Shown here one piece after another: positions 2,186 through 46,820 of a DNA stretch of 49,193 nucleotides. This DNA is from a virus. Lineage: Duplodnaviria > Heunggongvirae > Uroviricota > Caudoviricetes. The notes under the pieces are model-generated. The model was not told where the DNA came from and did not search any database. It saw only the letters and a list, made by a program, of their open reading frames with translations. The position numbers were made by a program, and so were the translations under genes. Position 1 is the first letter of the stretch. The number at the start of each line of letters is the position of its first letter. The stretch is from IMG/VR virus record IMGVR_UViG_3300045988_148039. One strand, given 5' to 3'.

Positions 2186-2421
2186 AAATCTCTTATCACC
2201 ACTCGTTTAATTCGTGGGCCTCGGCGTATACCTGCTGATAATCTTTCTACTTCATTACGCCAGTAATCCATCTCTTTTCTGACTTCTGATAAATCCGCAC
2301 GAGTTAACTGCCGCGTGCCAAATTTATATGACTGACCGCCAATAGCAATAGCGCGATATGCTTCCCGCCAGACAGATAACATCTCTCTGGCTTCAGTCAG
2401 AGAAAATGCTTCATTGCTCAT
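2182..2421 (-). CDS. Head-tail joining protein, gpW-like
   Basis: 79-aa ORF between large terminase and portal, the position lambda W occupies; ends in RRGP motif like lambda W. Confidence 0.55.
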   Translation of the reverse strand: MSNEAFSLTEAREMLSVWREAYRAIAIGGQSYKFGTRQLTRADLSEVRKEMDYWRNEVERLSAGIRRGPRIKRVVIRDL

Positions 2422-2432
2422 TTATATTTCCT

Positions 2433-4289
2433 CTATATGGTTACGCCTTTACTTATAACTCTACGGCGTCTTCTACGTATACCTGACGAGTTCTGCACAT
2501 ACACATTACCTCGCATTTCCTGTTCAGCAAGCCAGTCAAAATTAGGGTTCAGAATTTCCATCGCGGCAGTTGCATAGTTACGGCAATCAAGAGGCTCGTT
2601 ACGCTCGTAGACTTTCACCCACTTTTCTTTTGTCTGCCCATTTTTATATTCAAATATTTTTTTCTCTGATAATAGCCCTTTAAAATAATCAGTATCATAT
2701 CCTCTGTCAGAATCTAATGGAAAATGCATATAACCAGGACCAGGATCATGTAGCTTAATTCGTGCCATGATGGTCCCTTTACCATCATCAACCCCCAAAT
2801 TAAACAACATAGCGCCTACACGGTTATTATTGCTTGGCTTTCCTATAAACGGTAAACCTACCCCACCACGACCTCTGATAGAATATATTCGCCTTGATTC
2901 TCGCGGCTTAGTAAAGCGATATACCTCTGTCGTAAAATGCCCACCAGAGTCAATACAAACGGAAGAAATCTGTAATTTTCGACCGTCACGAAATGACCAG
3001 CTACGGAGTAAGTATTCATCAAGTTGTTTCCAGACAACATCTTGTGCGGGATCGCCCGGAAATATTTTATATTCAATCCCCCATGATTCCTTACCTTTTC
3101 CCCAACCGACCAATTCACAAACTAAATACGTGTCCTGTACGTCAACACCAGCACTTAACAATAAAACATCATCTGGTAAAAACTCTTCAAACCTTATTCT
3201 GCGTTGCAACAAGTATTCAGGATCGATATCGTCTTTAGCATCCTCTTTCCATGGCTCACCCAGCTTAAGGTTAATAAACTCCATTAATCCATTTTTATCG
3301 CGGTTTCTGGTTGCTTCCGTAAATTCTTCAACCAGCTCTGACAATGCAACCCACGGGGAGTAAAGACTGTTAATATGAAAACCAACAATACCTTTAACTC
3401 CAGTATGTTCAGCTATCCATACCCCCTTCGCCAACCAATCAACGTCTGGTTTACCAGATCCGCGCATAATCCCGCCGCACTCACAGCACTCATATCTGGC
3501 CGTTTCCGGTAACGCCTCACCTGAATCGCTCTTATCCCATCTGACTTGCGACCATTTCATCACCTGCATGGTGCCACAACATGGGCAAGGAACATGGTAG
3601 TAACGCTGATCGGAGAGCTTAAACCACTTGTGGATTTTGCTCGTTTCCTCCAAAACAGGAGTAGAAACAAAAACTTTCTTACGATTATGAAAGTTGGTAG
3701 TACGCTGAATACCTAGTTTTAGTGGGTCGCCCTCCTGCGTCACACCGTAACGATCAATCTCATCAGCTAACAGTATTCGAATTGGCCTGGATGCAAGACC
3801 TGCTGGGGAATTAGCACCAACAAGTGCTATATATCCACCAGCGTAATGCTTCATACGTATAGTCGTGCTGGACTTTTTGGCTGCACCGCGCCCCTCTTTC
3901 CCTTCATGCAGCTTGTGTTTCAAACCAGGGGAATATTTGAACGTCGGATCAATACGCTCTTTTGAAAAAGCCTCAGCCGCCTCTACCGTTGGATAAATCA
4001 TCAACTGAGGAGATGGCTCCTGATCTGCAAAGTAACCCATAACATTTAGCTGTAATTCGGATTTACCAATTTGCGAGCTACATTGCATCACTACTGTTTC
4101 TGTATCAGCGTCACCAATAACATCCATTGGTTCACGCAAATATGGCACTCGGCTTGTACGCCACGGCCCTGGCTCTGGAGACGTTCCCGGCGCTACATGA
4201 CGATACTTATCAGCCCATTCGGAAACAGTTAGCCGTGATTTAGGGCGAAGCGCACGGAAAAAAGCGGTGCTCCATACTGTTTCGCCCAT
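2433..4289 (-). CDS. Terminase large subunit (lambda gpA-like)
   Basis: 618-aa ORF; N-terminal ...VSEWADKY... and overall layout resemble lambda A; followed by W-like and portal genes. Confidence 0.85.
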   Translation of the reverse strand: MGETVWSTAFFRALRPKSRLTVSEWADKYRHVAPGTSPEPGPWRTSRVPYLREPMDVIGDADTETVVMQCSSQIGKSELQLNVMGYFADQEPSPQLMIYPTVEAAEAFSKERIDPTFKYSPGLKHKLHEGKEGRGAAKKSSTTIRMKHYAGGYIALVGANSPAGLASRPIRILLADEIDRYGVTQEGDPLKLGIQRTTNFHNRKKVFVSTPVLEETSKIHKWFKLSDQRYYHVPCPCCGTMQVMKWSQVRWDKSDSGEALPETARYECCECGGIMRGSGKPDVDWLAKGVWIAEHTGVKGIVGFHINSLYSPWVALSELVEEFTEATRNRDKNGLMEFINLKLGEPWKEDAKDDIDPEYLLQRRIRFEEFLPDDVLLLSAGVDVQDTYLVCELVGWGKGKESWGIEYKIFPGDPAQDVVWKQLDEYLLRSWSFRDGRKLQISSVCIDSGGHFTTEVYRFTKPRESRRIYSIRGRGGVGLPFIGKPSNNNRVGAMLFNLGVDDGKGTIMARIKLHDPGPGYMHFPLDSDRGYDTDYFKGLLSEKKIFEYKNGQTKEKWVKVYERNEPLDCRNYATAAMEILNPNFDWLAEQEMRGNVYVQNSSGIRRRRRRVISKGVTI

Positions 4290-8726: not shown

Positions 8727-8960
8727 GCCGTTTATCCGCTAAAATCCCCTCGCTTGTGCAAGCAAGTGGGCCTCGGTTTGTATCCACGGCACCCTGTGGG
8801 TATGAATGACTGTCGTCAGGTCGCAACTGACGGCGGTCGCCCACCTTCCAGTAATAAAAAAGCCACCAGCATTAACTCCACAATGAGCTGGAGTTAATGA
8901 GGCAGCTTTGGTTTGCGCATTATCGCAGCCCCTGATAAGCACAAGAGCTGCTGTAATGCG

Positions 8961-10788: not shown

Positions 10789-11057
10789 TACTCATCATCT
10801 CCTGCTGCACATACAACCTCACAAAAAACATCAGCGGAATGTTTCTCCTTGAACGAATGACGCTCAAAACCGCACTCAATATCAGGCGCAAAAACATCCA
10901 CCACATACGGTCTTTCAGAATGTTTGTTTTCCCAACGATAAACCGTAGTGACGTTGAAATGTTTTAACGCTTCACGGAACTCAACGCTGCCCGTCAGGTT
11001 TTTTGAGGTCAGGTATTGCAGGAGGTTTTTTACTACTTCACGGTCTTGTACTTTCAT
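10788..11057 (-). CDS. Hypothetical protein (first gene behind repeat cassette A)
   Basis: 89-aa ORF; ATG preceded by GGAGA inside the conserved leader. Confidence 0.45.
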   Translation of the reverse strand: MKVQDREVVKNLLQYLTSKNLTGSVEFREALKHFNVTTVYRWENKHSERPYVVDVFAPDIECGFERHSFKEKHSADVFCEVVCAAGDDE

Positions 11058-11065
11058 CGGGTTAT

Positions 11066-11173
11066 CTCCGGTTTAACCAGGGCGGGTATCGCTCGGTTTC
11101 GGGTATAACCATAGGAAATTTTTTCCCACCTGTAAAGCACTTTTTATATAAATCTATAATTATATAATTCTAT
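11066..11173 (-). promoter_or_regulatory. Conserved promoter/leader cassette, copy A (AT-rich palindromic motif plus ~75-nt leader ending in the RBS)
   Basis: Near-identical to 18236..18345 and 27641..27750; contains TATAAATCTATAATTATATAA and ends ...CCGGAGA just before the ATG at 11057. Confidence 0.7.
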
Positions 11174-11757
11174 GACATTTGCCAGAGAGCATCATGCAAC
11201 TGGATACCTCCGTTGCACTGGTTGCCCCAGCCATGCCAGCCATCAGGTAAATCACCGCGAGCAAACAGCTCAATACGAGGAACATCGCCTAACAGCTTTA
11301 CCAGCTTGTCACGGACCACATCAGGCTTCCGAGAATGCTCCAGACGAGGCGATGTAAACGACTGAATGATCCCCGCATCAAGACGGGTCGGCAGTTTGCC
11401 TTTTACCGCAAACAAGCAGTCTTCACTGTTTGCACGAGTCATATGCCCCATCCCCATCACCAGCTTATCTGGTTGTCGGCTACCACATTTGTTCCATGTG
11501 AAGCCCTTCATGGTCATCAGCCTGAATCCCCATGCTTTCACCACCAGCAACGCTTCTTCTGGCTGAGTCGGAACCCACCACATGGCCAACAAACACGATT
11601 CAGGATTAGCAAGCTGCCAGACAGGAATACGAGCAATCTCCTCAGCTTTCATCGTTGGATACTTAAAACCAGCTCCACGATTCCCATCCTTACACTTGTC
11701 TTTGTATTCCCAGGGGGGATCTGCATAAATCAGATTAAACAATGCAATTTCCTCCAT
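11170..11757 (-). CDS. MT-A70-family N6-adenine DNA methyltransferase
   Basis: 195 aa with N-terminal catalytic DPPW motif (LIYADPPWEY). Confidence 0.75.
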   Translation of the reverse strand: MEEIALFNLIYADPPWEYKDKCKDGNRGAGFKYPTMKAEEIARIPVWQLANPESCLLAMWWVPTQPEEALLVVKAWGFRLMTMKGFTWNKCGSRQPDKLVMGMGHMTRANSEDCLFAVKGKLPTRLDAGIIQSFTSPRLEHSRKPDVVRDKLVKLLGDVPRIELFARGDLPDGWHGWGNQCNGGIQLHDALWQMS

Positions 11758-12065: not shown

Positions 12066-12141
12066 TGGTGGCCCCTACCGGATTTGAACCGATGACCGTG
12101 CGATTATGAGTCGCCTGCTCTAACCACTAAGCTAAGGGGCC
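12066..12141 (-). tRNA. tRNA, anticodon CAT (Met, or lysidine-modified minor Ile2 given resemblance to E. coli ileX as I recall it)
   Basis: Reverse complement folds as a cloverleaf: 7-bp acceptor stem GGCCCCT/AGGGGCC, T-arm with TTCAAAT loop, anticodon loop CTCATAA, encoded 3' CCA. Confidence 0.8.
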
Positions 12142-12270: not shown

Positions 12271-12310
12271 ATGTTGTAACTATATATTTATATAATTATA
12301 GAAATATATA
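12271..12310. promoter_or_regulatory. AT-rich palindromic motif copy (TTATATAATTATAGAAAT) just downstream of the lysis genes
   Basis: Same motif family as in cassettes A-C, read directly. Confidence 0.4.
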
Positions 12311-17161: not shown

Positions 17162-18229
17162 TCAGGCTTTCAATAGCGATTCTTTCAGATATCGGGCATC
17201 AGCCAGGGCGTTTGGAGTAATCTTGCGAACCCATGCATTACGGGTTGGACTCCACTTAAAGGCGCGTGATTTAAGCAGCGAACGAATGTTTGCCTCTGGT
17301 TTGCCAGGGAAATAAAACAGGATGCGGTTATCCTCTGGATCTATCTCCATAGAAAAGCCGTCGTATTCTTCGCGCTGTGCTCCTGTTACAGACTTGACCG
17401 ATTCAAGCTCTTTAATACGGCTCTGTAGTCGTTTGATTTCGGCGTTATTGTTACTCAGTGAGTATGAAGGAAAGCCAATGTGCCCACAGAAATCTCCGGC
17501 CAGTAACTCTTTGGCTTCGCTTTCTGTAAACCTGAGATCGATTAATGCAGAAAGCTGCTGTAATTGGTCTTTTTTGTATTTGCGAATGACCTTATTTGCG
17601 GCCTTCATTTTGATGTGTGACTTCATGCAGCCTTGCAGCTTACGAAGCAACTTAAATAGCGCATCAGGATCATCAGACGAAACTCCATTACGGCCGACAC
17701 CTGCGGCTTTGCTCTCGTAGTGTGATGCTTTACTTTCGCATTCAACAAACGCTTTTCTGAATAACGCATCAGCTTTAGACAAACGGCGGCGATGGCCTTT
17801 CGCGCTATAATGGTCAACTAAAATCGGCTGGCCTAACGGGATCACATCCAACAGGTCATGCGCTCGCTTATGCGCCACCGCACCTTCTTTTCTGGCTTTT
17901 TCTGCACAAGCAATATATCGGGCAAGACGCGCGTTCTGGCGTTCCTGATAGGTATTTACGTAATCATCTCCGCGCTGCTGCTGTTCAAGCCATGCTTTGC
18001 GCAGCTTTTCTGTTACGTCTACCAACTCCGCAGGGATACAACCTGTTTGGGATTCATAAGAGTGACCATCCTCATAAAGACGTCCATCGTCTTCAACAAA
18101 GAAAAAGGTTTCGTGCTCATCGCTTTTGACCATACGGCCATTAACATGACGTAATCTATAGCCAGTATCAGTGCTTAACAGGCTGTTAGGGTTGTTGATC
18201 CAGTCAGAAATAATTACTTGTTTATTCAT
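17162..18229 (-). CDS. Hypothetical protein (first gene behind repeat cassette B)
   Basis: Start taken at internal ATG 18229 (MNKQVII...) preceded by GGAGA of the conserved leader; the longer ORF to 18283 would run into the leader. Confidence 0.5.
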   Translation of the reverse strand: MNKQVIISDWINNPNSLLSTDTGYRLRHVNGRMVKSDEHETFFFVEDDGRLYEDGHSYESQTGCIPAELVDVTEKLRKAWLEQQQRGDDYVNTYQERQNARLARYIACAEKARKEGAVAHKRAHDLLDVIPLGQPILVDHYSAKGHRRRLSKADALFRKAFVECESKASHYESKAAGVGRNGVSSDDPDALFKLLRKLQGCMKSHIKMKAANKVIRKYKKDQLQQLSALIDLRFTESEAKELLAGDFCGHIGFPSYSLSNNNAEIKRLQSRIKELESVKSVTGAQREEYDGFSMEIDPEDNRILFYFPGKPEANIRSLLKSRAFKWSPTRNAWVRKITPNALADARYLKESLLKA

Positions 18230-18235
18230 CAGATT

Positions 18236-18345
18236 TCTCCGGTTTAACCAGGGCGGGTATCGCTCGGTTTCGGGTATAACCATAGGAAATTTTTTCCCAC
18301 CTGTAAAGCACTTTTTTATATAAATCTATAATTATATATTTATAG
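18236..18345 (-). promoter_or_regulatory. Conserved promoter/leader cassette, copy B
   Basis: Near-identical to copies A and C; its AT-rich part extends into a longer near-palindrome ATCTATAATTATATATTTATAGAT. Confidence 0.7.
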
Positions 18346-18400
18346 ATTTTCCGATGTTCCCGATGTCTACAAATCACTAAAACAGCTCAAAATGACACTT

Positions 18401-18778
18401 TCACTCTCTTCTCTTTTTCAAGTAGTCGACAACATACGCCCTGGCCTTTGCCAGCTTCCGGCGATACTGTCTGAGACTAAGAGAAAGGGCGTGGGCTTTA
18501 TCAATATGCGGTGCATTTATGTCGAGGCCCCGAATCTCCCACGCCCCGTATTCAATTCGGACAACCAGCGCCGCAGTCTCATCAACTACCGTGAGGGCCG
18601 TCACCGCTCCCTCTATACTGGTTTCCAGTGAGTCATTTGGTGCACCGCCCCCTCCGGTAAACTGGCAGCGCGTAACCATCATCATTTCTAACATCGACGC
18701 GAAACCGCTACGGGCGTTGCAGCCATTGCGCACCCACAGCGCCCATAGCTCAAACAAGCTATCCAGATCGCGTCTCAC
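18401..18778 (-). CDS. Hypothetical protein (possible antiterminator Q-like, from position only)
   Basis: 125-aa ORF just upstream of cassette B; functional guess is positional. Confidence 0.3.
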   Translation of the reverse strand: MRRDLDSLFELWALWVRNGCNARSGFASMLEMMMVTRCQFTGGGGAPNDSLETSIEGAVTALTVVDETAALVVRIEYGAWEIRGLDINAPHIDKAHALSLSLRQYRRKLAKARAYVVDYLKKRRE

Positions 18779-20770: not shown

Positions 20771-20888
20771 ACCACGATATGTGGTATTAAAACCACATAT
20801 CGTGAGTTTTTCAATGGGCGAAACAAAAAATAACCTTCTATTTGTGGTCCACCTCTCGTCTTACCATGTGAAAACCACTAAATGTGGT
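20771..20888. promoter_or_regulatory. Immunity operator region with ACCAC-N5-GTGGT palindromes
   Basis: ACCACGATATGTGGT (20771..20785), a 13-bp perfect inverted repeat CACGATATGTGGT/ACCACATATCGTG with 6-bp spacer (20773..20804), and ACCACTAAATGTGGT (20874..20888). Confidence 0.6.
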
Positions 20889-20925: not shown

Positions 20926-21582
20926 ATGAAAAGCAACGACGAGAACATCAAGAAAGAAATAGGTCTGCGCATTCAGACTCTACGGAAACAATCCGGCATG
21001 ACTGCCGGAGATCTCCAGCAAGTCACTGGAATAGGCTTAAGCACCTTGCAGAACTATGAGGCCGGATTAAGACAACCATCTATACCTGCCATCAAGAAAA
21101 TCGCGCACGCCCTGAAAGCATCAGCGCCTTATATCGCGTGCTTAACAGATAACCCGTTCCTACCCCAGAATACTAACGCTCCTGTTATTCCTGGGCTTGT
21201 AGCTATAAAAAATGACATAGCATCGCACGCCGGAGAAAAGCCAGTGCTGGCGATAGAACAGGAGATTCTACGAAGCAAGAACATCAACCCATCGTCTCTG
21301 TCAGTTCTCCAGAGCAACGATGAGTTAATGTCACCAACAATATCCCCTGGCTCCCAAGTCCTGATTAATACAGACGATACAGAGATTCATGAGGGGATCT
21401 ATGCCCTTGAAGACAGAAATGGCCTGGTTGTTTTGAGGCACTGTAGAGTCATACCGGGTGACAATGCTGTTATGCTGTCAACCGAAAGGGATGCTGAAAT
21501 GAACACTAAGCATCTGAATAACGAGGAATTTAAGCGTTATAAAGTTCTTGGCCGCGTAGTTAGTGTTGTCAACTGGTTATGA
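20926..21582 (+). CDS. cI-like repressor (N-terminal XRE HTH, C-terminal LexA/S24-like autocleavage domain)
   Basis: 218 aa; HTH segment GMTAGDLQQVTGIGLSTLQNYEAG; S24-like C-terminal region with candidate Ser (ELMSPT) and Lys (KRYKVLGRV). Confidence 0.75.
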   Translation: MKSNDENIKKEIGLRIQTLRKQSGMTAGDLQQVTGIGLSTLQNYEAGLRQPSIPAIKKIAHALKASAPYIACLTDNPFLPQNTNAPVIPGLVAIKNDIASHAGEKPVLAIEQEILRSKNINPSSLSVLQSNDELMSPTISPGSQVLINTDDTEIHEGIYALEDRNGLVVLRHCRVIPGDNAVMLSTERDAEMNTKHLNNEEFKRYKVLGRVVSVVNWL

Positions 21583-21624
21583 TACACAGCACGGCGAAAG
21601 CCGTGCATTTCTACGCTCAAAAAA

Positions 21625-21639
21625 ACCACATTTTGTGGT
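21625..21639. promoter_or_regulatory. Additional ACCACATTTTGTGGT operator next to a TTGACA -35 element
   Basis: Read directly, downstream of a CACGGC-gaaa-GCCGTG hairpin that follows the cI stop. Confidence 0.5.
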
Positions 21640-21674
21640 TTTGACAACATGTAAAAGTATAAAAGAGGCTACGC

Positions 21675-23366: not shown

Positions 23367-23389
23367 TAAAAAAGGCCCCCGAAGGGGCC
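23367..23389 (-). terminator. Rho-independent terminator (GGCCCC-GAA-GGGGCC with run of T on the minus strand)
   Basis: Perfect GC hairpin preceded on the plus strand by AAAAAAA; read directly. Confidence 0.6.
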
Positions 23390-23395
23390 TAATCG

Positions 23396-23518
23396 CTACT
23401 TGCTGCTAATGTTTATCGTCACATTCAGAGCGTTATCAGTAATCTTCCAACCCTCCCCATGTGGCGTAAACAAAGCTCCAGTAACAACGATAAAAATACA
23501 CATACAGTATTTTTTCAT
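23396..23518 (-). CDS. Small hydrophobic peptide (about 40 aa)
   Basis: Internal ATG at 23518 gives MKKYCMCIFIVVTGALFTPHGEGWKITDNALNVTINISSK; terminator immediately downstream. Confidence 0.3.
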   Translation of the reverse strand: MKKYCMCIFIVVTGALFTPHGEGWKITDNALNVTINISSK

Positions 23519-23916
23519 TGTATGGCCCTTACAGGCCGTTTCACGGCATCCCCACCGACGAAAACAACGCGAGAGCAAGCACGGCTGCTTGTGCTTGCAT
23601 GTACGGCAACGGAGAATCCTCCCCTAAAGTCGGTGCCCGGGTGCGAATCGGCGGGAAGGTCCACAGGTATTTTACGATTATTTTAAGATTAGTAATAGGA
23701 AAGAAATTAAACGAAAAAACTCGTTTATTTTCACAAAATCAGTAACCTACCCACAATCTGTGAGTTTGCAGGCACAACAAGAACCACAATTTTTTGAAGC
23801 ATAATAGTGGACTATTATTACCTTTTGGGTAAAATTAACTTGCTGCTTGTGCTTGCGTGGTTGTTTATACAACAACGTAATGCTGAAAGGACCGCGAATC
23901 CGATCAGCACGAAAGA

Positions 23917-24034: not shown

Positions 24035-24110
24035 AGCCGTAGCAAAATCTACGGTCGGGATTAGCCTCCTGAATAACACGATGGCGCATACCGCGTTAGC
24101 GGTTTTTTTA
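24035..24110 (+). ncRNA. Candidate small antisense RNA (immI/C4-like position upstream of the antirepressor)
   Basis: TTGACA at 24001..24006; about 75 nt with hairpin CCGTAG-caaaatc-TACGG and a 3' hairpin plus T-run at 24090..24109; GATTAGCCTC at 24058 recurs at 24224 next to the following ORF. Confidence 0.3.
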
Positions 24111-24235
24111 TGCGTAGAGCACTGTTACGCCCAAATTATGGTGGGTCGTACAGGGGCGGAGAAATCCGCGCCGGTTCGTCATTGTGTCCGGTAAGGCTAA
24201 CCCTGTACGGCTCACCACCATTTGATTAGCCTCGA

Positions 24236-24463
24236 ATGGCGGTGATAGTTCCATATACTGGAGATATCACAATGACAAACCTACCCCATGACTATTACGT
24301 CAACCTCGTAAAGATCCTTCTCAAGAAAGCCTCATACGCCGATAAATTCCGCCTGGCTGAAATCATCGAGCGCGAAGCTATGCGCATCGCCAGCAACGAT
24401 AACGCTGTTTCTGACGCAAAAATCTCCCTCGTAACCAAAGTAGTTATGGGAGGTGCAAAATGA
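24236..24463 (+). CDS. Small protein upstream of and overlapping the antirepressor start
   Basis: 75-aa ORF; stop overlaps the antirepressor ATG. Confidence 0.35.
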   Translation: MAVIVPYTGDITMTNLPHDYYVNLVKILLKKASYADKFRLAEIIEREAMRIASNDNAVSDAKISLVTKVVMGGAK

Positions 24464-25611
24464 AAACGCTTCGGACCGTTAACACCCTACAGCCTATCCT
24501 GCATAATCAGATTCCAGTAATCACAACTGAGCTACTCGCCCGCCTTTATGGAACAGAAGCAATCCGTATACAGCAAAATCACCATGAAAATAAAACTCGG
24601 TTCATTGAGGGGAAGCACTTCTTTAAAGCTGTTGGTGATGAACTCAAAAATTTGCGACTAGTTTTAAACGAGTCACAAAATGAGGTACAAATTTCCCCCA
24701 AAACTCGCTCTCTCATCCTCTGGACAGAACGTGGGGCTGCACGTCACGCTAAAATGCTCGAAACCGATCAGGCGTGGGATGTGTTCGAACGTCTGGAAGA
24801 CTGCTATTTCAGCCAGAACGCGCAAACGGCCGCGACCGTAACCGTCTCACCAAACAATGCTCGTGAGGTTGTCGATACGCTCAACGCCAAACCAATGTAT
24901 TACGTTAAGGTGTGCAACAACGAGCCACTCACAACCTCAGCCGATGTTGCCCAAGCATTCAGCACCACAAACAATTCCATCGTTATGGCCATCGATGCGT
25001 TACGCATTCCTCGCACGGCTGCGGCGCGTCACTTCTTTAAAGAACAACGACCGCTGGAAGGAAGCGACCGCGAAATAACAATCTATCGCATGACAAAAGA
25101 CGGATTTACCTTGCTCATGGAGAGTATCGACGGTCCAGGCGTGAAAGATATCAAGCTGGCCTACATTGAAGCCTTTAACGCTATCAGCAGCGTGTTAAAA
25201 ACACAGTACGAGCGTGATCTGGCTAAACGACTGTACCAGGAAAAAACGATTATCCGCGCGGCAACAGAGCATAATCGGCTATTAACGGAACCGAACTACA
25301 GGAAGGAACTAATAAAGGAGTTTGACAAGGCAACAGGGAAAACCAAAGCGGCGCTAAATCTGCCAGCAATGACTCAGGAAAATGTGATATCAGCCTTACT
25401 TCTTGATCTGCTCAGAAACGCCAGAGCACTTATCAGCTTTGACGAAAATCTGAACCCTCAGCTCAAACTACTACCACCGACAGGCAAAGTAGTCGACCAA
25501 GCTGATCACAACAGCATACTCAGCGTACTGGATGCAAACCTGCCAGCCAAGACACTACAGGAACTGATAAAAATATCTGCGGATAAACTGGCCGCAGGTG
25601 CAAAACCATAA
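24460..25611 (+). CDS. Antirepressor-like protein
   Basis: 383 aa; domain assignment (KilA-N/ORF6N-like N-terminus, Rha-like middle) is from memory of those families. Confidence 0.6.
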   Translation: MKTLRTVNTLQPILHNQIPVITTELLARLYGTEAIRIQQNHHENKTRFIEGKHFFKAVGDELKNLRLVLNESQNEVQISPKTRSLILWTERGAARHAKMLETDQAWDVFERLEDCYFSQNAQTAATVTVSPNNAREVVDTLNAKPMYYVKVCNNEPLTTSADVAQAFSTTNNSIVMAIDALRIPRTAAARHFFKEQRPLEGSDREITIYRMTKDGFTLLMESIDGPGVKDIKLAYIEAFNAISSVLKTQYERDLAKRLYQEKTIIRAATEHNRLLTEPNYRKELIKEFDKATGKTKAALNLPAMTQENVISALLLDLLRNARALISFDENLNPQLKLLPPTGKVVDQADHNSILSVLDANLPAKTLQELIKISADKLAAGAKP

Positions 25612-26841: not shown

Positions 26842-26866
26842 TGAAAACCGCCCGGCAAGGCGGTTT
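26842..26866. terminator. Bidirectional terminator-like hairpin (AAAACCGCC-cggcaa-GGCGGTTTT)
   Basis: Perfect 9-bp stem flanked by an A-run and a T-run; downstream of the HTH gene. Confidence 0.6.
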
Positions 26867-26916
26867 TTGTCTTTCTGGCGCTTACATTACACCACCATAA
26901 AACGATCCGTAAAGGA

Positions 26917-27189
26917 TCATTTGATCCCTTGTTCCAATTCTGACGACACTTTAACCTTTTCCCATACAAGGGTTTGCAGCCTTAACAGAATCGCATCTTT
27001 ATCAAGGTGTGAAAGATCCTTAACCATATCGTCAAACGACAGAACGCGAATGGCCATCTCAATGACCCTCGGCGGCTCCCCCTTCTCATATCGCTTATAT
27101 GTAGCCAACGATATCCCAAATTCTTCGGCGGCTCGCTCCTGCGTCCAGTTCATCCCACGACGCCATAATTTCAATTCATAACCCGTCAT
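26917..27189 (-). CDS. XRE-family HTH regulator
   Basis: Start at ATG 27189 with GGAGG RBS; HTH segment WTQERAAEEFGISLATYKRYEKGE. Confidence 0.55.
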   Translation of the reverse strand: MTGYELKLWRRGMNWTQERAAEEFGISLATYKRYEKGEPPRVIEMAIRVLSFDDMVKDLSHLDKDAILLRLQTLVWEKVKVSSELEQGIK

Positions 27190-27218
27190 AGCATCCTCCG
27201 CGCACAATATTAACACTC

Positions 27219-27243
27219 GCAAAGTGTCAAAATGACACTTTGC
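27219..27243. promoter_or_regulatory. Perfect 11-bp inverted repeat GCAAAGTGTCA-aaa-TGACACTTTGC (candidate operator)
   Basis: Read directly about 30 bp upstream of the HTH gene start. Confidence 0.55.
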
Positions 27244-27252
27244 GCATTGTGT

Positions 27253-27633
27253 TTACTTAACGAGGAATAAAAATGGTTTATTGTTAGGCGGTGTAATCGG
27301 GGCTGGCTCGCTTTTGCTCATGCGATCAGTGTACCAGGCCAGCTCCTTGTCAAAGTAAGCCTGATTAAAATAGGCCATGAATGTAGTTTCAAATCCATAA
27401 CGACCGCTAATACGCAGCATCTGATTGCCGTTCTCTGTTTCCAGATATACCTGGGCACGTTCCTGATTCTCCTTCAGCCAGGTTAAAGCCTCGTCGCACG
27501 AGGACACACGATACTCATCATCGTAGCCGTCATCGATGCGGCTTGAAGAAGAACGGCAAATCACGCCAACAGAACCAGCCAGGATAGTTTGAATTTTAAG
27601 GAAAGCGTTTTTGCGGATTTTGATCATGCTCAT
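27253..27633 (-). CDS. Hypothetical protein (first gene behind repeat cassette C)
   Basis: 126-aa ORF; ATG preceded by GGAGA of the conserved leader. Confidence 0.45.
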   Translation of the reverse strand: MSMIKIRKNAFLKIQTILAGSVGVICRSSSSRIDDGYDDEYRVSSCDEALTWLKENQERAQVYLETENGNQMLRISGRYGFETTFMAYFNQAYFDKELAWYTDRMSKSEPAPITPPNNKPFLFLVK

Positions 27634-27640
27634 CGGGTTT

Positions 27641-27750
27641 TCTCCGGTTTAACCAGGGCGACTATCGCTCGGTTTCGGGTATAACCTTAGGAAATTTTTT
27701 CCCACCTGTAAAGCAGTTTTTATATAAATCTATAATTATATAATTCTATG
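27641..27750 (-). promoter_or_regulatory. Conserved promoter/leader cassette, copy C
   Basis: Differs from copy A at a handful of positions over about 105 bp; read directly. Confidence 0.7.
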
Positions 27751-27796
27751 AGCACAAAAAAGCCCCTTTGCAACAGGGGCTTATCATTCGTTCTGA

Positions 27797-29905: not shown

Positions 29906-30886
29906 TTAATGTTGGAGTGATTTCCAGGTCTTTCTTAGCCTGTTATAACGCTGCTCAACGAGGGAGCGTAAATATGCAAGGTCAGCTCCAGGATACATGC
30001 CATCAGCAAATTCCTGGCTAACCTCTCTAGTGATTTGATGACGAAGTTCGGCCTCTCCCTTTTCCCGAACAAGACGCGCAGCTCTCTCCGCTGCTTTCTG
30101 TTTTGCCTTTATCTCTCTGGCCGTCTTCCTCTGACGCCATACATTCTCCATCTGCTCCTGAATAACAATACGCTTATAATCAGCCTCCGTTATCGCTTTT
30201 TTAAGCCGTTCGCTATTCTTCGCATTGAAGTAATTAAGTTTCTGGCTAACCGCACGTCTCCATGCTTGTTCAGTAATACCAACGGTTTCCAGCAGTTGAT
30301 CACGAATCTCTATTTTCGCTGGCCAATACTGTTTATTCACCCGATCCCAGCGACGTTCATAATCAATAAAACCTAACGCTTTCAGTTGCGACAACGCCCT
30401 TGTACAGCGCGTTATAGACTTGTTCCCAGCTTCGGATACGGTAGACAGGCCGCAAAAATCAGCCAACGCCTCAGCACTAGCCAGAACCCGCTTAGAAATG
30501 ATGTTTACATGGTGCAAAATCGCAGCGATCACAGCATTAATCGCCCGACGACGATGCTCGTTTATCCGGCGCTTCCGCTCTGACGGTTGATTAACGTAGA
30601 ACGCAACCTCACACGTAAGATCACGCCCATTAATGCGCTGTAAAGCATCAGATAACACCAGCGGCAGCTTGTGCGTATGGTGCTTTGGAGGCTGGAACTC
30701 CGGCGACAAATTACAAACGTAAGCTGAACGTAGAGACGGCATTGGTCTATCCATATGTTCGCTCTTGCGTCCACGGAAAACCAACGTATAATGGGAGTTG
30801 TCGAGGCGCCCATGGATTGTTGTTGTTGGTTTTCCGTGGATGTCGCAAGAAGCCCGCAGATTTATCTGCGGGCTTTTTGTTTCCAT
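29906..30886 (-). CDS. repA: Plasmid replication initiator RepA (IncFII/RepFIIA-type); true start possibly internal (MDRPMPS, about 30754)
   Basis: Central segment NKSITRCTRALSQLKALGFIDYERRWD resembles R100/R1 RepA1 KLSITRATRALTFLSELGLITYQTEYD as I recall it; basic C-terminal half; length about 280 aa from the internal start. Confidence 0.7.
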   Translation of the reverse strand: METKSPQINLRASCDIHGKPTTTIHGRLDNSHYTLVFRGRKSEHMDRPMPSLRSAYVCNLSPEFQPPKHHTHKLPLVLSDALQRINGRDLTCEVAFYVNQPSERKRRINEHRRRAINAVIAAILHHVNIISKRVLASAEALADFCGLSTVSEAGNKSITRCTRALSQLKALGFIDYERRWDRVNKQYWPAKIEIRDQLLETVGITEQAWRRAVSQKLNYFNAKNSERLKKAITEADYKRIVIQEQMENVWRQRKTAREIKAKQKAAERAARLVREKGEAELRHQITREVSQEFADGMYPGADLAYLRSLVEQRYNRLRKTWKSLQH

Positions 30887-46479: not shown

Positions 46480-46820
46480 ATCGGCATTCCTCTGTTAGTA
46501 TTAACAGTGAGAGTTATTTCCAATACACCAACATTATCTGATACTTCATCAACAATATAATTTTTACCGTTGATTTTCATTGACTGGTCTTTGACAGGGA
46601 GAACAGGAAAATCTTTTCTTGAAACAAATAATATTATTTGCCCTTGATTTATTCCCTCTGCAAACTCAGCATATGAGCGTTTATTCCGCTCATGAATAAG
46701 GTCTGTATCAATAACGGCAAGGATATCCTTGCCGTCTATGTTATATGTATCGGCAAACTCTTTTTCATTGAGGAATATTGCAGAAATATCTTGCGCTATA
46801 ACCTCTTTGAAGGAGTTCAT
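46476..46820 (-). CDS. Hypothetical protein (possible head-tail connector)
   Basis: 114-aa ORF, positional inference. Confidence 0.4.
   Translation of the reverse strand: MNSFKEVIAQDISAIFLNEKEFADTYNIDGKDILAVIDTDLIHERNKRSYAEFAEGINQGQIILFVSRKDFPVLPVKDQSMKINGKNYIVDEVSDNVGVLEITLTVNTNRGMPI

What the first reader, a model, noticed from the sequence alone, without database searches (positions are those of the whole stretch)
27219..27243. Perfect 11-bp inverted repeat upstream of an HTH regulator, with a half-site copy elsewhere
GCAAAGTGTCA-aaa-TGACACTTTGC sits about 30 bp upstream of the XRE-type gene at 26917..27189. A 15-nt match to one arm (TCAAAATGACACTTT) occurs at 18386..18400, between the Q-like gene and cassette B. 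This suggests a small autoregulated circuit with a second target.
Basis: seen in the sequence. Interest (0 to 1): 0.4.

Follow-up and report, generated by a model that had tools for sequence, protein, structure and literature searches.

The report
Self-repression operator of a phage-plasmid regulator
The perfect palindrome is very probably the DNA site where the small helix-turn-helix regulator encoded just downstream binds to control its own gene, an ordinary arrangement, though the same regulator-plus-palindrome pair is found on many enterobacterial phages and plasmids and has not been studied.

Summary
The palindrome is real. It is slightly larger than reported: 12-bp arms, 27218-27244, CGCAAAGTGTCA-aaa-TGACACTTTGCG. 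It lies 29 nt upstream of a 90-aa XRE-type HTH gene (26917-27189, minus strand) in a ~48-kb E. coli/Yersinia phage-plasmid.

Homologs of this HTH in about 25 loci from many genera, and IncI/K plasmid ygeA at 35% identity, carry an AAGTG-N9-CACTT palindrome just upstream of their start codon, in otherwise unrelated flanking DNA. GTG/CAC is invariant. Inner bases vary symmetrically and track changes in the recognition helix. Some loci have two or three copies. A conserved extended -10 (TGtTAATAT) places the operator over the -35 region, which fits autorepression.

The second site is at 18387-18401 (reader off by 1 nt). It is one perfect half-site plus spacer plus TGA. It is invariant among ten close relatives whose flanks vary, but absent from the diverged Salmonella relatives. 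A second target is therefore possible but weakly supported.

An RNA hairpin role, as for Aca2 to which the HTH is weakly similar, is not excluded and gains no specific support. No characterised family member was found. Verdict: an ordinary autoregulatory operator, a new member of a known kind.

The parts
27218..27244 (.). Perfect palindrome CGCAAAGTGTCA-aaa-TGACACTTTGCG. The family-conserved core AAAGTGTCA-N3-TGACACTTT is 27221-27241. Inferred operator of the adjacent HTH protein.
   Evidence: sequence and chance expectation; conserved AAGTG-N9-CACTT upstream of homologs; 21-bp core invariant in all close relatives, with variable flanks.
26917..27189 (-). Gene for a 90-aa XRE-type HTH protein (HTH in residues ~1-45, then two long C-terminal helices). 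The inferred repressor.
   Evidence: ORF; Pfam HTH_3 29.8 bits, HTH_31 27.6 bits; PHROG 6962, unknown function, E 1.5e-45; AlphaFold model, pLDDT 85, five helices; weak similarity to Aca2, E 8.5e-4.
27207..27215 (-). Predicted extended -10 promoter element TGtTAATAT. The hexamer starts 19 nt from the palindrome centre, which places the operator centre near -31, over the -35 region. TTGACA (27231-27226) lies inside the right arm.
   Evidence: Read. The same TGnTAWWWT element sits at the same distance from the palindrome centre in the 71%-identity relatives L044 and L045 despite diverged flanks. Not detected by the consensus scan, which requires a 16-18 nt spacer. Inference only.
27194..27199 (-). 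Shine-Dalgarno sequence GGAGGA of the HTH gene.
   Evidence: sequence. In the predicted RNA fold it pairs with UUCC in the 3' end of the upstream ORF.
27253..27633 (-). Upstream co-directional ORF of 126 aa with unknown function. Its stop codon is 8 nt from the palindrome. It may be co-transcribed with the HTH gene from cassette C.
   Evidence: no Pfam hit; PHROG 8090, unknown function. Synteny is kept in phage-plasmid relatives only (cluster C21).
27630..27751 (-). Promoter/leader cassette C, one of three ~122-nt copies, upstream of the 126-aa ORF.
   Evidence: family D3; alignment.
26842..26869 (.). GC-rich hairpin (AAAACCGCC-n-GGCGGTTTT), a bidirectional terminator-like site just downstream of the HTH gene. 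It suggests the HTH gene ends its transcription unit.
18379..18401 (-). Second site. On the minus strand it reads AAAGTGTCATTTTGAGCTGTTTT. The 15-mer shared with site 1 is 18387-18401. It consists of one perfect half-site, the spacer and TGA, and its first base is the last base of the stop codon of ORF 18401-18778.
   Evidence: 14 of 18 operator positions; 0.14 sites scoring exactly 14, about 0.18 scoring 14 or more, expected by chance; 23-nt block invariant in 10 relatives with variable flanks; absent in Salmonella relatives L054 and L062.

Best explanation
The palindrome is the operator of the small XRE-family HTH protein encoded immediately downstream. A dimer of the protein binds the two AAAGTGTCA half-sites, with the conserved AAGTG read by the recognition helix and 9 bp between the pentamers. 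The site overlaps the -35 region and spacer of the gene's own extended -10 promoter, so binding shuts off the gene's transcription: negative autoregulation that holds the regulator at a low, steady level. Shown directly: the palindrome, the HTH fold, and the family-wide pairing of gene and palindrome. Inferred: dimerisation, the promoter position, and the sign of regulation (repression). The half-site copy at 18387-18401 may be a weak additional site specific to the E. coli/Yersinia/Klebsiella clade.
For: (1) An unbiased search for the best inverted repeat in the 150 nt upstream of each HTH homolog found a palindrome of the same type in most loci. These came from Serratia, Enterobacter, Rahnella, Symbiopectobacterium, Hafnia, Scandinavium, Lelliottia, Pseudescherichia, Erwinia, Pluralibacter, Citrobacter and Buttiauxella, with unrelated flanking sequence. 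(2) AGTG-N9-11-CACT occurs within about 100 nt upstream of the start codon in roughly two thirds of 34 loci. About 0.16 would be expected in that much sequence, and the rest of the ~250 kb of flanks holds only about the chance number (expectation is my calculation). (3) In 27 distinct sites GTG/CAC is invariant and AA/TT nearly so. Inner pairs 8/16 and 9/15 vary but stay complementary (25/27 and 27/27). The central 3-5 nt are AT-rich and unpaired. (4) Operator type tracks the recognition helix...YKRYE goes with GTG-n-CA...YK[D/A/V]YE with GTGCA...RRTYQGYE with GCGCA, and the pOXA-48 homolog ISRTSLVKYE with ATGTTCA-N4-TGAACAT. (5) Several loci have two or three copies about 56 bp apart, as tandem operators often are. 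(6) Neighbouring genes are not conserved across the family, so the palindrome goes with the HTH gene itself. (7) The 21-bp core is invariant in all close relatives while adjacent bases vary. It is retained in the 71%-identity relatives L044 and L045 together with a TGnTAWWWT element at the same distance. (8) Non-complementary positions show no bias toward RNA-compatible wobble: 8 A.C against 5 G.U on the sense strand. This argues against selection acting only on an RNA hairpin.
Against: No binding or expression data exist. The consensus promoter scan found no sigma-70 promoter here, so the extended -10 promoter is my inference. The set of 27 sites used for the conservation table was partly selected by requiring AGTG/CACT, which makes the invariance partly circular; one search is the independent evidence. 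In plasmid L001 the outermost pair changed symmetrically (G..C to A..T) although the HTH protein is identical, which is what a hairpin constraint would predict. In the window-type elements the palindrome lies between two co-directional genes and would form a very stable hairpin if transcribed. In L041/L043 and in Yersinia phage vB_YpM_44, insertions of 0.3-0.6 kb separate the palindrome from the gene, so tight coupling is not essential.
Confidence: 0.8

Rival explanations
1. The palindrome acts at the RNA level. The 126-aa ORF and the HTH gene are co-transcribed from cassette C, and the intercistronic 12-bp hairpin, extended by an outer stem that sequesters the HTH Shine-Dalgarno, controls translation or stability of the downstream cistron. 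It might be bound by the HTH protein itself, as Aca2 binds an RNA stem-loop. This could coexist with DNA binding.
For: Predicted fold of -30.8 kcal/mol with z = -3.5, in which UUCC from the upstream ORF's 3' end pairs with GGAG of the SD. Symmetric G..C to A..T change in L001 with an unchanged protein. The C-to-T change in L044 and the change in L008 give G.U on the sense strand. The best solved-structure sequence match is Aca2, E 8.5e-4, aligned from residue 1 to 68. Aca2 and other Aca proteins are reported to bind structured RNA motifs, including motifs between genes of one operon (PMC13551039).
Against: What is conserved across the family is the sequence (GTG/CAC invariant), not merely the pairing. 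A.C mismatches are at least as frequent as G.U. Loci such as L019b, L026 and L030 have arms with non-wobble mismatches yet keep the half-site sequence. Tandem copies up to 143 nt upstream of the start codon make sense for DNA operators, not for a UTR hairpin. No Rfam family matches. Co-transcription is unproven.
Confidence: 0.12
2. The palindrome is an intrinsic transcription terminator or attenuator that ends the transcript of the upstream 126-aa ORF, or a plus-strand transcript.
For: The consensus scan lists it as terminator-like on the plus strand: a 12-pair stem followed by CATTGTGTTT. It starts 8 nt after the stop codon of the upstream ORF.
Against: Both flanking genes are on the minus strand. 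There the hairpin is followed by GAGUGUUAAUAUUGUG, which has no U-tract. The stem is only 50% GC with a 3-nt loop. A strong bidirectional terminator already lies at 26842-26869 for any plus-strand transcription. Homologous palindromes in other loci sit 10-14 nt before the start codon with no upstream co-directional gene.
Confidence: 0.04
3. The palindrome is bound by a different protein of the phage-plasmid or host (for example a partition, replication or recombination factor), and its position next to the HTH gene is incidental.
For: The window is rich in other palindromes and repeats with evident regulatory roles. The motif includes TTGACAC, which resembles the ArdK operator ATTGACAC of plasmid R388 (PMC9723621).
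Against: The palindrome type follows the HTH gene into chromosomal islands, IncI/K plasmids and unrelated phages where none of the other phage-plasmid genes is present. No ArdK/KorA homolog was detected: the profile search of solved structures found neither. The motif occurs once in the window, not near parA, repA or the invertase gene.
Confidence: 0.04

Closest known systems
Autoregulated XRE/Cro-C1-type HTH repressors (for example P2 C, HipB, SinR, and restriction-modification controller C-proteins such as C.Esp1396I)
   Same: Small HTH_3 domain protein. The fold search returns exactly these proteins as nearest structures. A palindromic operator sits immediately upstream of the protein's own gene, overlapping the promoter, with occasional tandem operators.
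   Different: No significant similarity to any one of them: all Foldseek E-values exceed 0.04. The operator sequence AAGTG-N9-CACTT is this family's own. There is no partner toxin or restriction gene in this window, and the C-terminal part is two long helices.
Aca2 (anti-CRISPR-associated autorepressor; PDB 7EZY; phage ZF40 Aca2)
   Same: Best sequence match among solved structures, aligned from the N-terminal MT.YEL motif through residue 68, and highest query TM-score in the fold search (0.54). It is an HTH dimer that represses its own operon through inverted repeats (PMC6765145). It sits downstream of a small gene of unknown function on a mobile element. Aca2 is also reported to bind RNA motifs, including ones between genes of an operon (PMC13551039), which resembles the intercistronic position here.
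   Different: E-value is only 8.5e-4. The protein is 90 aa, not about 116-125 aa. The predicted C-terminal part is all-helical, whereas the Aca2 dimerisation domain contains beta strands (against PMC8434428). Aca2's inverted-repeat core is TTCG-N6/8-CGAA, not AAGTG-N9-CACTT. The operator here is between the upstream ORF and the HTH gene, not upstream of the operon. The upstream ORF has no known anti-defence function.
ArdK/KorA-type plasmid establishment repressors (R388, pKM101, RP4)
   Same: A small plasmid-borne HTH repressor whose operator overlaps the -35 TTGACA of target promoters. The plasmids also carry repeated promoter cassettes (PMC9723621), and this window has three copies of a promoter/leader cassette.
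   Different: No detectable sequence relationship; ArdK/KorA structures were not hit even at E <= 1. ArdK binds direct repeats as an asymmetric dimer, whereas this site is a perfect inverted repeat. The palindrome here is not part of the repeated cassettes.

Membership tests
XRE / HTH_3 (Pfam PF01381) transcriptional regulators | Protein matches the HTH_3 profile above Pfam's gathering score | tested here: met
   29.8 bits against a cut-off of 23; HTH_31 27.6 against 27.
XRE / HTH_3 (Pfam PF01381) transcriptional regulators | Helical lambda-repressor-like fold | tested here: met
   AlphaFold model with pLDDT 85 and helices at 3-12, 17-24, 28-36, 41-60 and 64-86. Nearest structures are SinR, HipB, P2 C, HigA and C-proteins, though none reaches E <= 0.001.
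Autoregulatory operator-repressor pair | Dyad-symmetric site directly upstream of the regulator's own gene | tested here: met
   12-bp perfect arms, 29 nt from the ATG.
Autoregulatory operator-repressor pair | The site type is conserved with the regulator across diverged homologs and co-varies with the recognition helix | tested here: met
Autoregulatory operator-repressor pair | The site overlaps the core promoter of the regulated gene | tested here: inconclusive
   An extended -10, TGtTAATAT, lies 19 nt from the dyad centre and is conserved in L044 and L045, but the consensus scan finds no promoter and no transcription start is mapped.
Autoregulatory operator-repressor pair | The protein binds the site and represses transcription | not testable with these tools
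   Needs EMSA or footprinting and reporter assays.
Aca2 (anti-CRISPR-associated protein 2) family | Significant sequence similarity over the HTH and the C-terminal dimerisation domain | tested here: not met
   Profile against PDB gives E 8.5e-4 over residues 1-68 only. No Aca2-type domain appears in the Pfam scan. The model is all-helical and 90 aa, whereas the Aca2 C-terminal domain has beta strands (PMC8434428).
Aca2 (anti-CRISPR-associated protein 2) family | Inverted repeats with a TTCG...CGAA core in the operon promoter or 5' UTR | tested here: not met
   The operator here is AAGTG-N9-CACTT. The Aca2 inverted-repeat core is from PMC6765145.
Aca2 (anti-CRISPR-associated protein 2) family | Encoded downstream of an anti-CRISPR gene in one operon | tested here: inconclusive
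   A 126-aa ORF of unknown function precedes the HTH gene. No anti-defence assignment could be made.
Rho-independent terminator | GC-rich stem-loop followed by a U-tract on the transcribed strand | tested here: not met
   On the minus (coding) strand the stem is followed by GAGUGUUAAUAUUG. A T-rich tail exists only on the plus strand, where no gene reads into it.
ArdK/KorA family | Sequence homology to KorA/ArdK | tested here: not met
   No KorA or ArdK chain among PDB hits up to E = 1.

The most novel reading that the evidence does not exclude
The 90-aa HTH represents a large uncharacterised family of mobile-element regulators: phage-plasmids, IncI/K 'ygeA', pOXA-48-type IncL plasmids and genomic islands, with homologs in about 3,700 plasmid records. 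In this reading it works like Aca proteins. It switches off a burst-expressed establishment or anti-defence gene (here the 126-aa ORF driven by the repeated promoter cassette) and does so on two levels: it binds the AAGTG-N9-CACTT dyad as DNA, and it binds the same sequence as an intercistronic RNA hairpin that occludes its own ribosome-binding site.
Probability: 0.1. Interest if true: 0.55.

Novelty: new member of a known kind. Interest (0 to 1): 0.3.

Why it matters
By itself this is a textbook arrangement: a small repressor with a palindromic operator in front of its own gene. Its value is practical. The comparative analysis defines a recognisable operator, AAGTG-N9-CACTT, for an unstudied HTH family (PHROG 6962). 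Homologs of this family sit on thousands of enterobacterial plasmids, including IncI/K and pOXA-48-type resistance plasmids, and on phage-plasmids. The motif could therefore be used to map the regulons of these proteins and to ask whether they control establishment or anti-defence genes. The finding does not open a long-standing question.

Tried and rejected
(1) F-plasmid YgeA, whose deletion lowers conjugation (PMC9849209), shares a name with the IncI homolog. tblastn of the HTH against the F leading region gave nothing credible (best E 0.058), and F YgeA is a different protein. Rejected.

(2) ArdK of IncN/IncW plasmids as a homolog. It belongs to the KorA family, binds direct repeats, and is not hit by the profile. 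It is a functional analogue only.

(3) The K. aerogenes plasmid L055 was fetched as a 'diverged' relative, but it carries the window-type HTH and both sites, so it was uninformative.

(4) Search for further operator copies in the window. The full pattern AAGTG-N9-11-CACTT occurs only at site 1. Half-site matches with up to 1 mismatch number 11 against 14 expected. Two sites score 14/18, at 18381 and 9544; the latter lies inside an ORF and was not pursued.

(5) The idea that the 15-mer at 18387 is merely part of the triplicated promoter cassette was rejected, because it lies outside the conserved block.

(6) An RNA fold of the second site is not better than shuffles (z = -0.83).

(7) Rfam shows no family at either site.

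(8) The Foldseek PDB search gave only generic XRE hits, so no specific functional assignment follows from structure.

(9) The consensus promoter scan found nothing at the site.

Full report
**Context.** The window is a ~48-kb phage-plasmid. Its 24-31 kb segment is 96-98% identical to about 50 non-mobilisable E. coli, E. albertii and K. aerogenes plasmids of 46-52 kb that carry repA alongside P2-like myovirus structural genes. It is 97% identical to Yersinia phages vB_YpM_39, vB_YpM_41 and vB_YpM_44. The finding lies in the plasmid-maintenance/accessory region. On the minus strand the order is repA (29906-30886), two small ORFs, a HigB/HigA-type pair (28449-27797), promoter cassette C (27751-27630), a 126-aa ORF (27633-27253), the palindrome, the HTH gene (27189-26917), and a terminator-like hairpin (26869-26842).

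**Observation.** The sequence is exactly as reported. The perfect dyad has 12-bp arms (27218-27244). About 0.04 such palindromes are expected by chance in a window like this one. The downstream ORF is a bona fide HTH_3 protein. It lies outside the triplicated ~122-nt cassette and overlaps the stop codon of ORF 18401-18778.

**What site 1 is.** I collected homologs of the HTH protein and their loci from viral contigs and from one genome per species.
- A sequence-blind search for the best inverted repeat in the 150 nt upstream of each homolog returned palindromes of one type in most loci. Examples: AAAGTGACA-aaa-TGTCACTTT (Symbiopectobacterium plasmid), AAAGTGCCA-att-TGGCACTTT (Lelliottia), and AAGTGCA-n5-TGCACTT (Enterobacter, Erwinia, Citrobacter, Buttiauxella, Pluralibacter, Pseudescherichia).
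- The pattern AGTG-N9-CACT is concentrated in the ~100 nt before the start codon. Elsewhere in ~250 kb of flanks it occurs about as often as chance predicts.
- In 27 distinct sites GTG/CAC is invariant. Inner pairs 8/16 and 9/15 switch among C-G, T-A and A-T while staying complementary. The centre is AT-rich. This table is partly circular, since the sites were picked with AGTG/CACT; one search is the independent evidence.
- Operator subtype follows the recognition helix. The 42%-identity homolog on pOXA-48-type IncL plasmids has another dyad, ATGTTCA-N4-TGAACAT, at its operon promoter. The 35%-identity IncI/K 'ygeA' has two AAGTG-N9-CACTT dyads, at -105 and -35.
- Neighbouring genes are not conserved across the family, so the dyad belongs with the HTH gene.

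Sequence invariance with symmetric inner variation, tandem copies, and independence from context together mark a dimer-binding operator.

**Promoter geometry (inferred).** On the minus strand the dyad is followed by GAG-TGtTAATAT-tgtgcgc-GGAGGA-tgct-ATG. The 71%-identity relatives L044 and L045 have TGaTAAAAT and TGaTAAATT at the same 19-nt distance from the dyad centre, although the other intergenic bases differ. An extended -10 promoter there would start transcription near 27200. That puts the dyad centre near -31, over the -35 region, and TTGACA lies in the right arm. Binding would therefore repress. The consensus scan does not call this promoter. In most other subfamilies the dyad ends 10-14 nt before the ATG, so it overlaps the start site or 5' UTR instead.

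**RNA rival.** If transcribed, the dyad forms a 12-bp hairpin extended by an outer stem that pairs the HTH Shine-Dalgarno sequence (-30.8 kcal/mol, z = -3.5).
- One relative (L001) changed the outermost pair from G..C to A..T with an identical protein, and two changes give G.U on the sense strand.
- The best solved-structure sequence match is Aca2 (E 8.5e-4, residues 1-68). That family is reported to bind both promoter inverted repeats and structured RNA motifs, including ones between genes of an operon (PMC6765145, PMC13551039).
- Against an RNA-only role: the family conserves sequence rather than pairing alone; A.C mismatches (8) are at least as common as G.U (5); several sites have non-wobble mismatches; and tandem copies lie far upstream.
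- Membership in the Aca2 family fails on domain architecture and operator sequence. The fold search returns only generic XRE proteins.
- I keep an additional RNA role at about 0.1.

**Other rivals.** A terminator role fails because there is no U-tract on the coding strand. Binding by a different protein is unlikely given the gene-linked distribution. Rfam has nothing at the site.

**Second site.**
- For a real site: it is one perfect half-site, the TTT spacer and TGA, scoring 14 of 18 operator positions; about 0.18 sites at that score or better are expected by chance. Among ten relatives whose 231-nt surroundings are 94-97% identical, the 23-nt block AAAGTGTCATTTTGAGCTGTTTT is invariant. Bases on both sides vary, including the stop codon (TGA/TAA). 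Under a uniform model the chance of that is about 0.02 for the 15-mer and 0.002 for the 23-mer. This is overstated, because the variants fall into a few haplotypes.
- Against: the Salmonella relatives keep site 1 but have an extra gene at this junction and no such motif anywhere else outside the HTH gene. The site is about 110 nt upstream of the predicted cassette-B start, an unusual place for repression.
- I put a genuine second target at about 0.25.

**Known relatives and novelty.** PHROG 6962 is annotated 'unknown function', and NCBIfam gives only weak sub-threshold hits. F-plasmid YgeA is not homologous. ArdK is an analogue, not a homolog. I found no paper on this family. tblastn finds homologs in 3,712 plasmid records, mostly conjugative. 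The finding is a new member of a known kind, an autoregulated XRE repressor with its operator. The side result is a defined operator motif for a widespread unstudied family.

Noticed in passing
window 11054-11175, 18225-18346, 27630-27751 (minus strand): Three copies (76-96% identical) of a ~122-nt cassette that ends at the ATG of three different genes. It comprises an AT-rich TATAA-type repeat block, a TTTACA-17-TATGGT promoter-like pair, and a conserved ~55-nt leader with the ribosome-binding site. It resembles the repeated promoter cassettes of plasmid leading regions. Related AT-rich repeats also occur at 12271, 17098, 22071, 22144 and 22852, as if they were dispersed operators of a master regulator.
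   Followed up: partly
window 20773-20804: The largest perfect palindrome in the window (13-bp arms, CACGATATGTGGT-attaaa-ACCACATATCGTG). It lies in the divergent region between the CI-like repressor gene (20926-21582, +; PHROG 4) and the early operon on the minus strand. A related imperfect copy is at 21622-21647. It is probably the main immunity operator.
   Followed up: no
window 24036-24109 (+), 24134-24222 (+), 23368-23664 (-), 12069-12141 (-): Rfam hits above gathering score. isrK and a P1-type C4 antisense RNA lie directly upstream of the ORF6N/Rha antirepressor gene (24460-25611), a P1 immI-like antirepressor control module. There is also a ryfA-like RNA and a tRNA gene.
   Followed up: no
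L002 (Yersinia phage vB_YpM_44) 10693-11010: A 318-bp MITE-like insertion with terminal inverted repeats GGGGTTCCGTGGG.../...CCCACGGAACCCC and a 5-bp target duplication GCTAT. It sits exactly between the Shine-Dalgarno sequence and the ATG of the HTH gene, separating the gene from its operator and promoter.
   Followed up: partly
L041 3420-4000 and L043 (IMG/VR contigs): A ~0.58-kb segment carrying a reverse-oriented ORF with an N-terminal hydrophobic stretch is inserted right after the predicted -10 (GTTAATAT), between the operator and the HTH gene. With the Yersinia MITE, this is a second independent insertion at the same junction. In L043 the central triplet of the palindrome is flipped (AAA instead of TTT) with the flanks unchanged.
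   Followed up: partly
L053 (pOXA-48-type IncL plasmid) 2400-3830; L063 (IncI-gamma/K1 plasmid) 1890-2252: In the IncL plasmid the 42%-identity homolog is the second gene of an operon and overlaps a downstream gene annotated as a restriction endonuclease, an arrangement like that of a C-protein. A different palindrome, ATGTTCA-N4-TGAACAT, sits at the operon promoter. The IncI/K 'ygeA' homolog has two AAGTG-N9-CACTT dyads.
   Followed up: partly
window 8870-8899, 30850-30875, 46714-46735: Three further perfect palindromes with arms of 11-12 bp. The window has five such palindromes where 0.125 are expected. The one at 30850-30875 lies at the 5' end of repA.
   Followed up: no
window 26944-26952 (minus strand); L054 31165-31173: A near-perfect operator half-site (AAAGTGTCG; exact AAAGTGTCA in the Salmonella relative) lies inside the 3' end of the HTH gene, where it encodes K-V-S. 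This is probably coincidental with the coding sequence.
   Followed up: no
window 11168-11182 (plus strand), just upstream of cassette A on the minus strand: GCAAATGTCAT resembles the palindrome's left arm GCAAAGTGTCAT with a one-base deletion. I judged this to be chance and did not test it.
   Followed up: no
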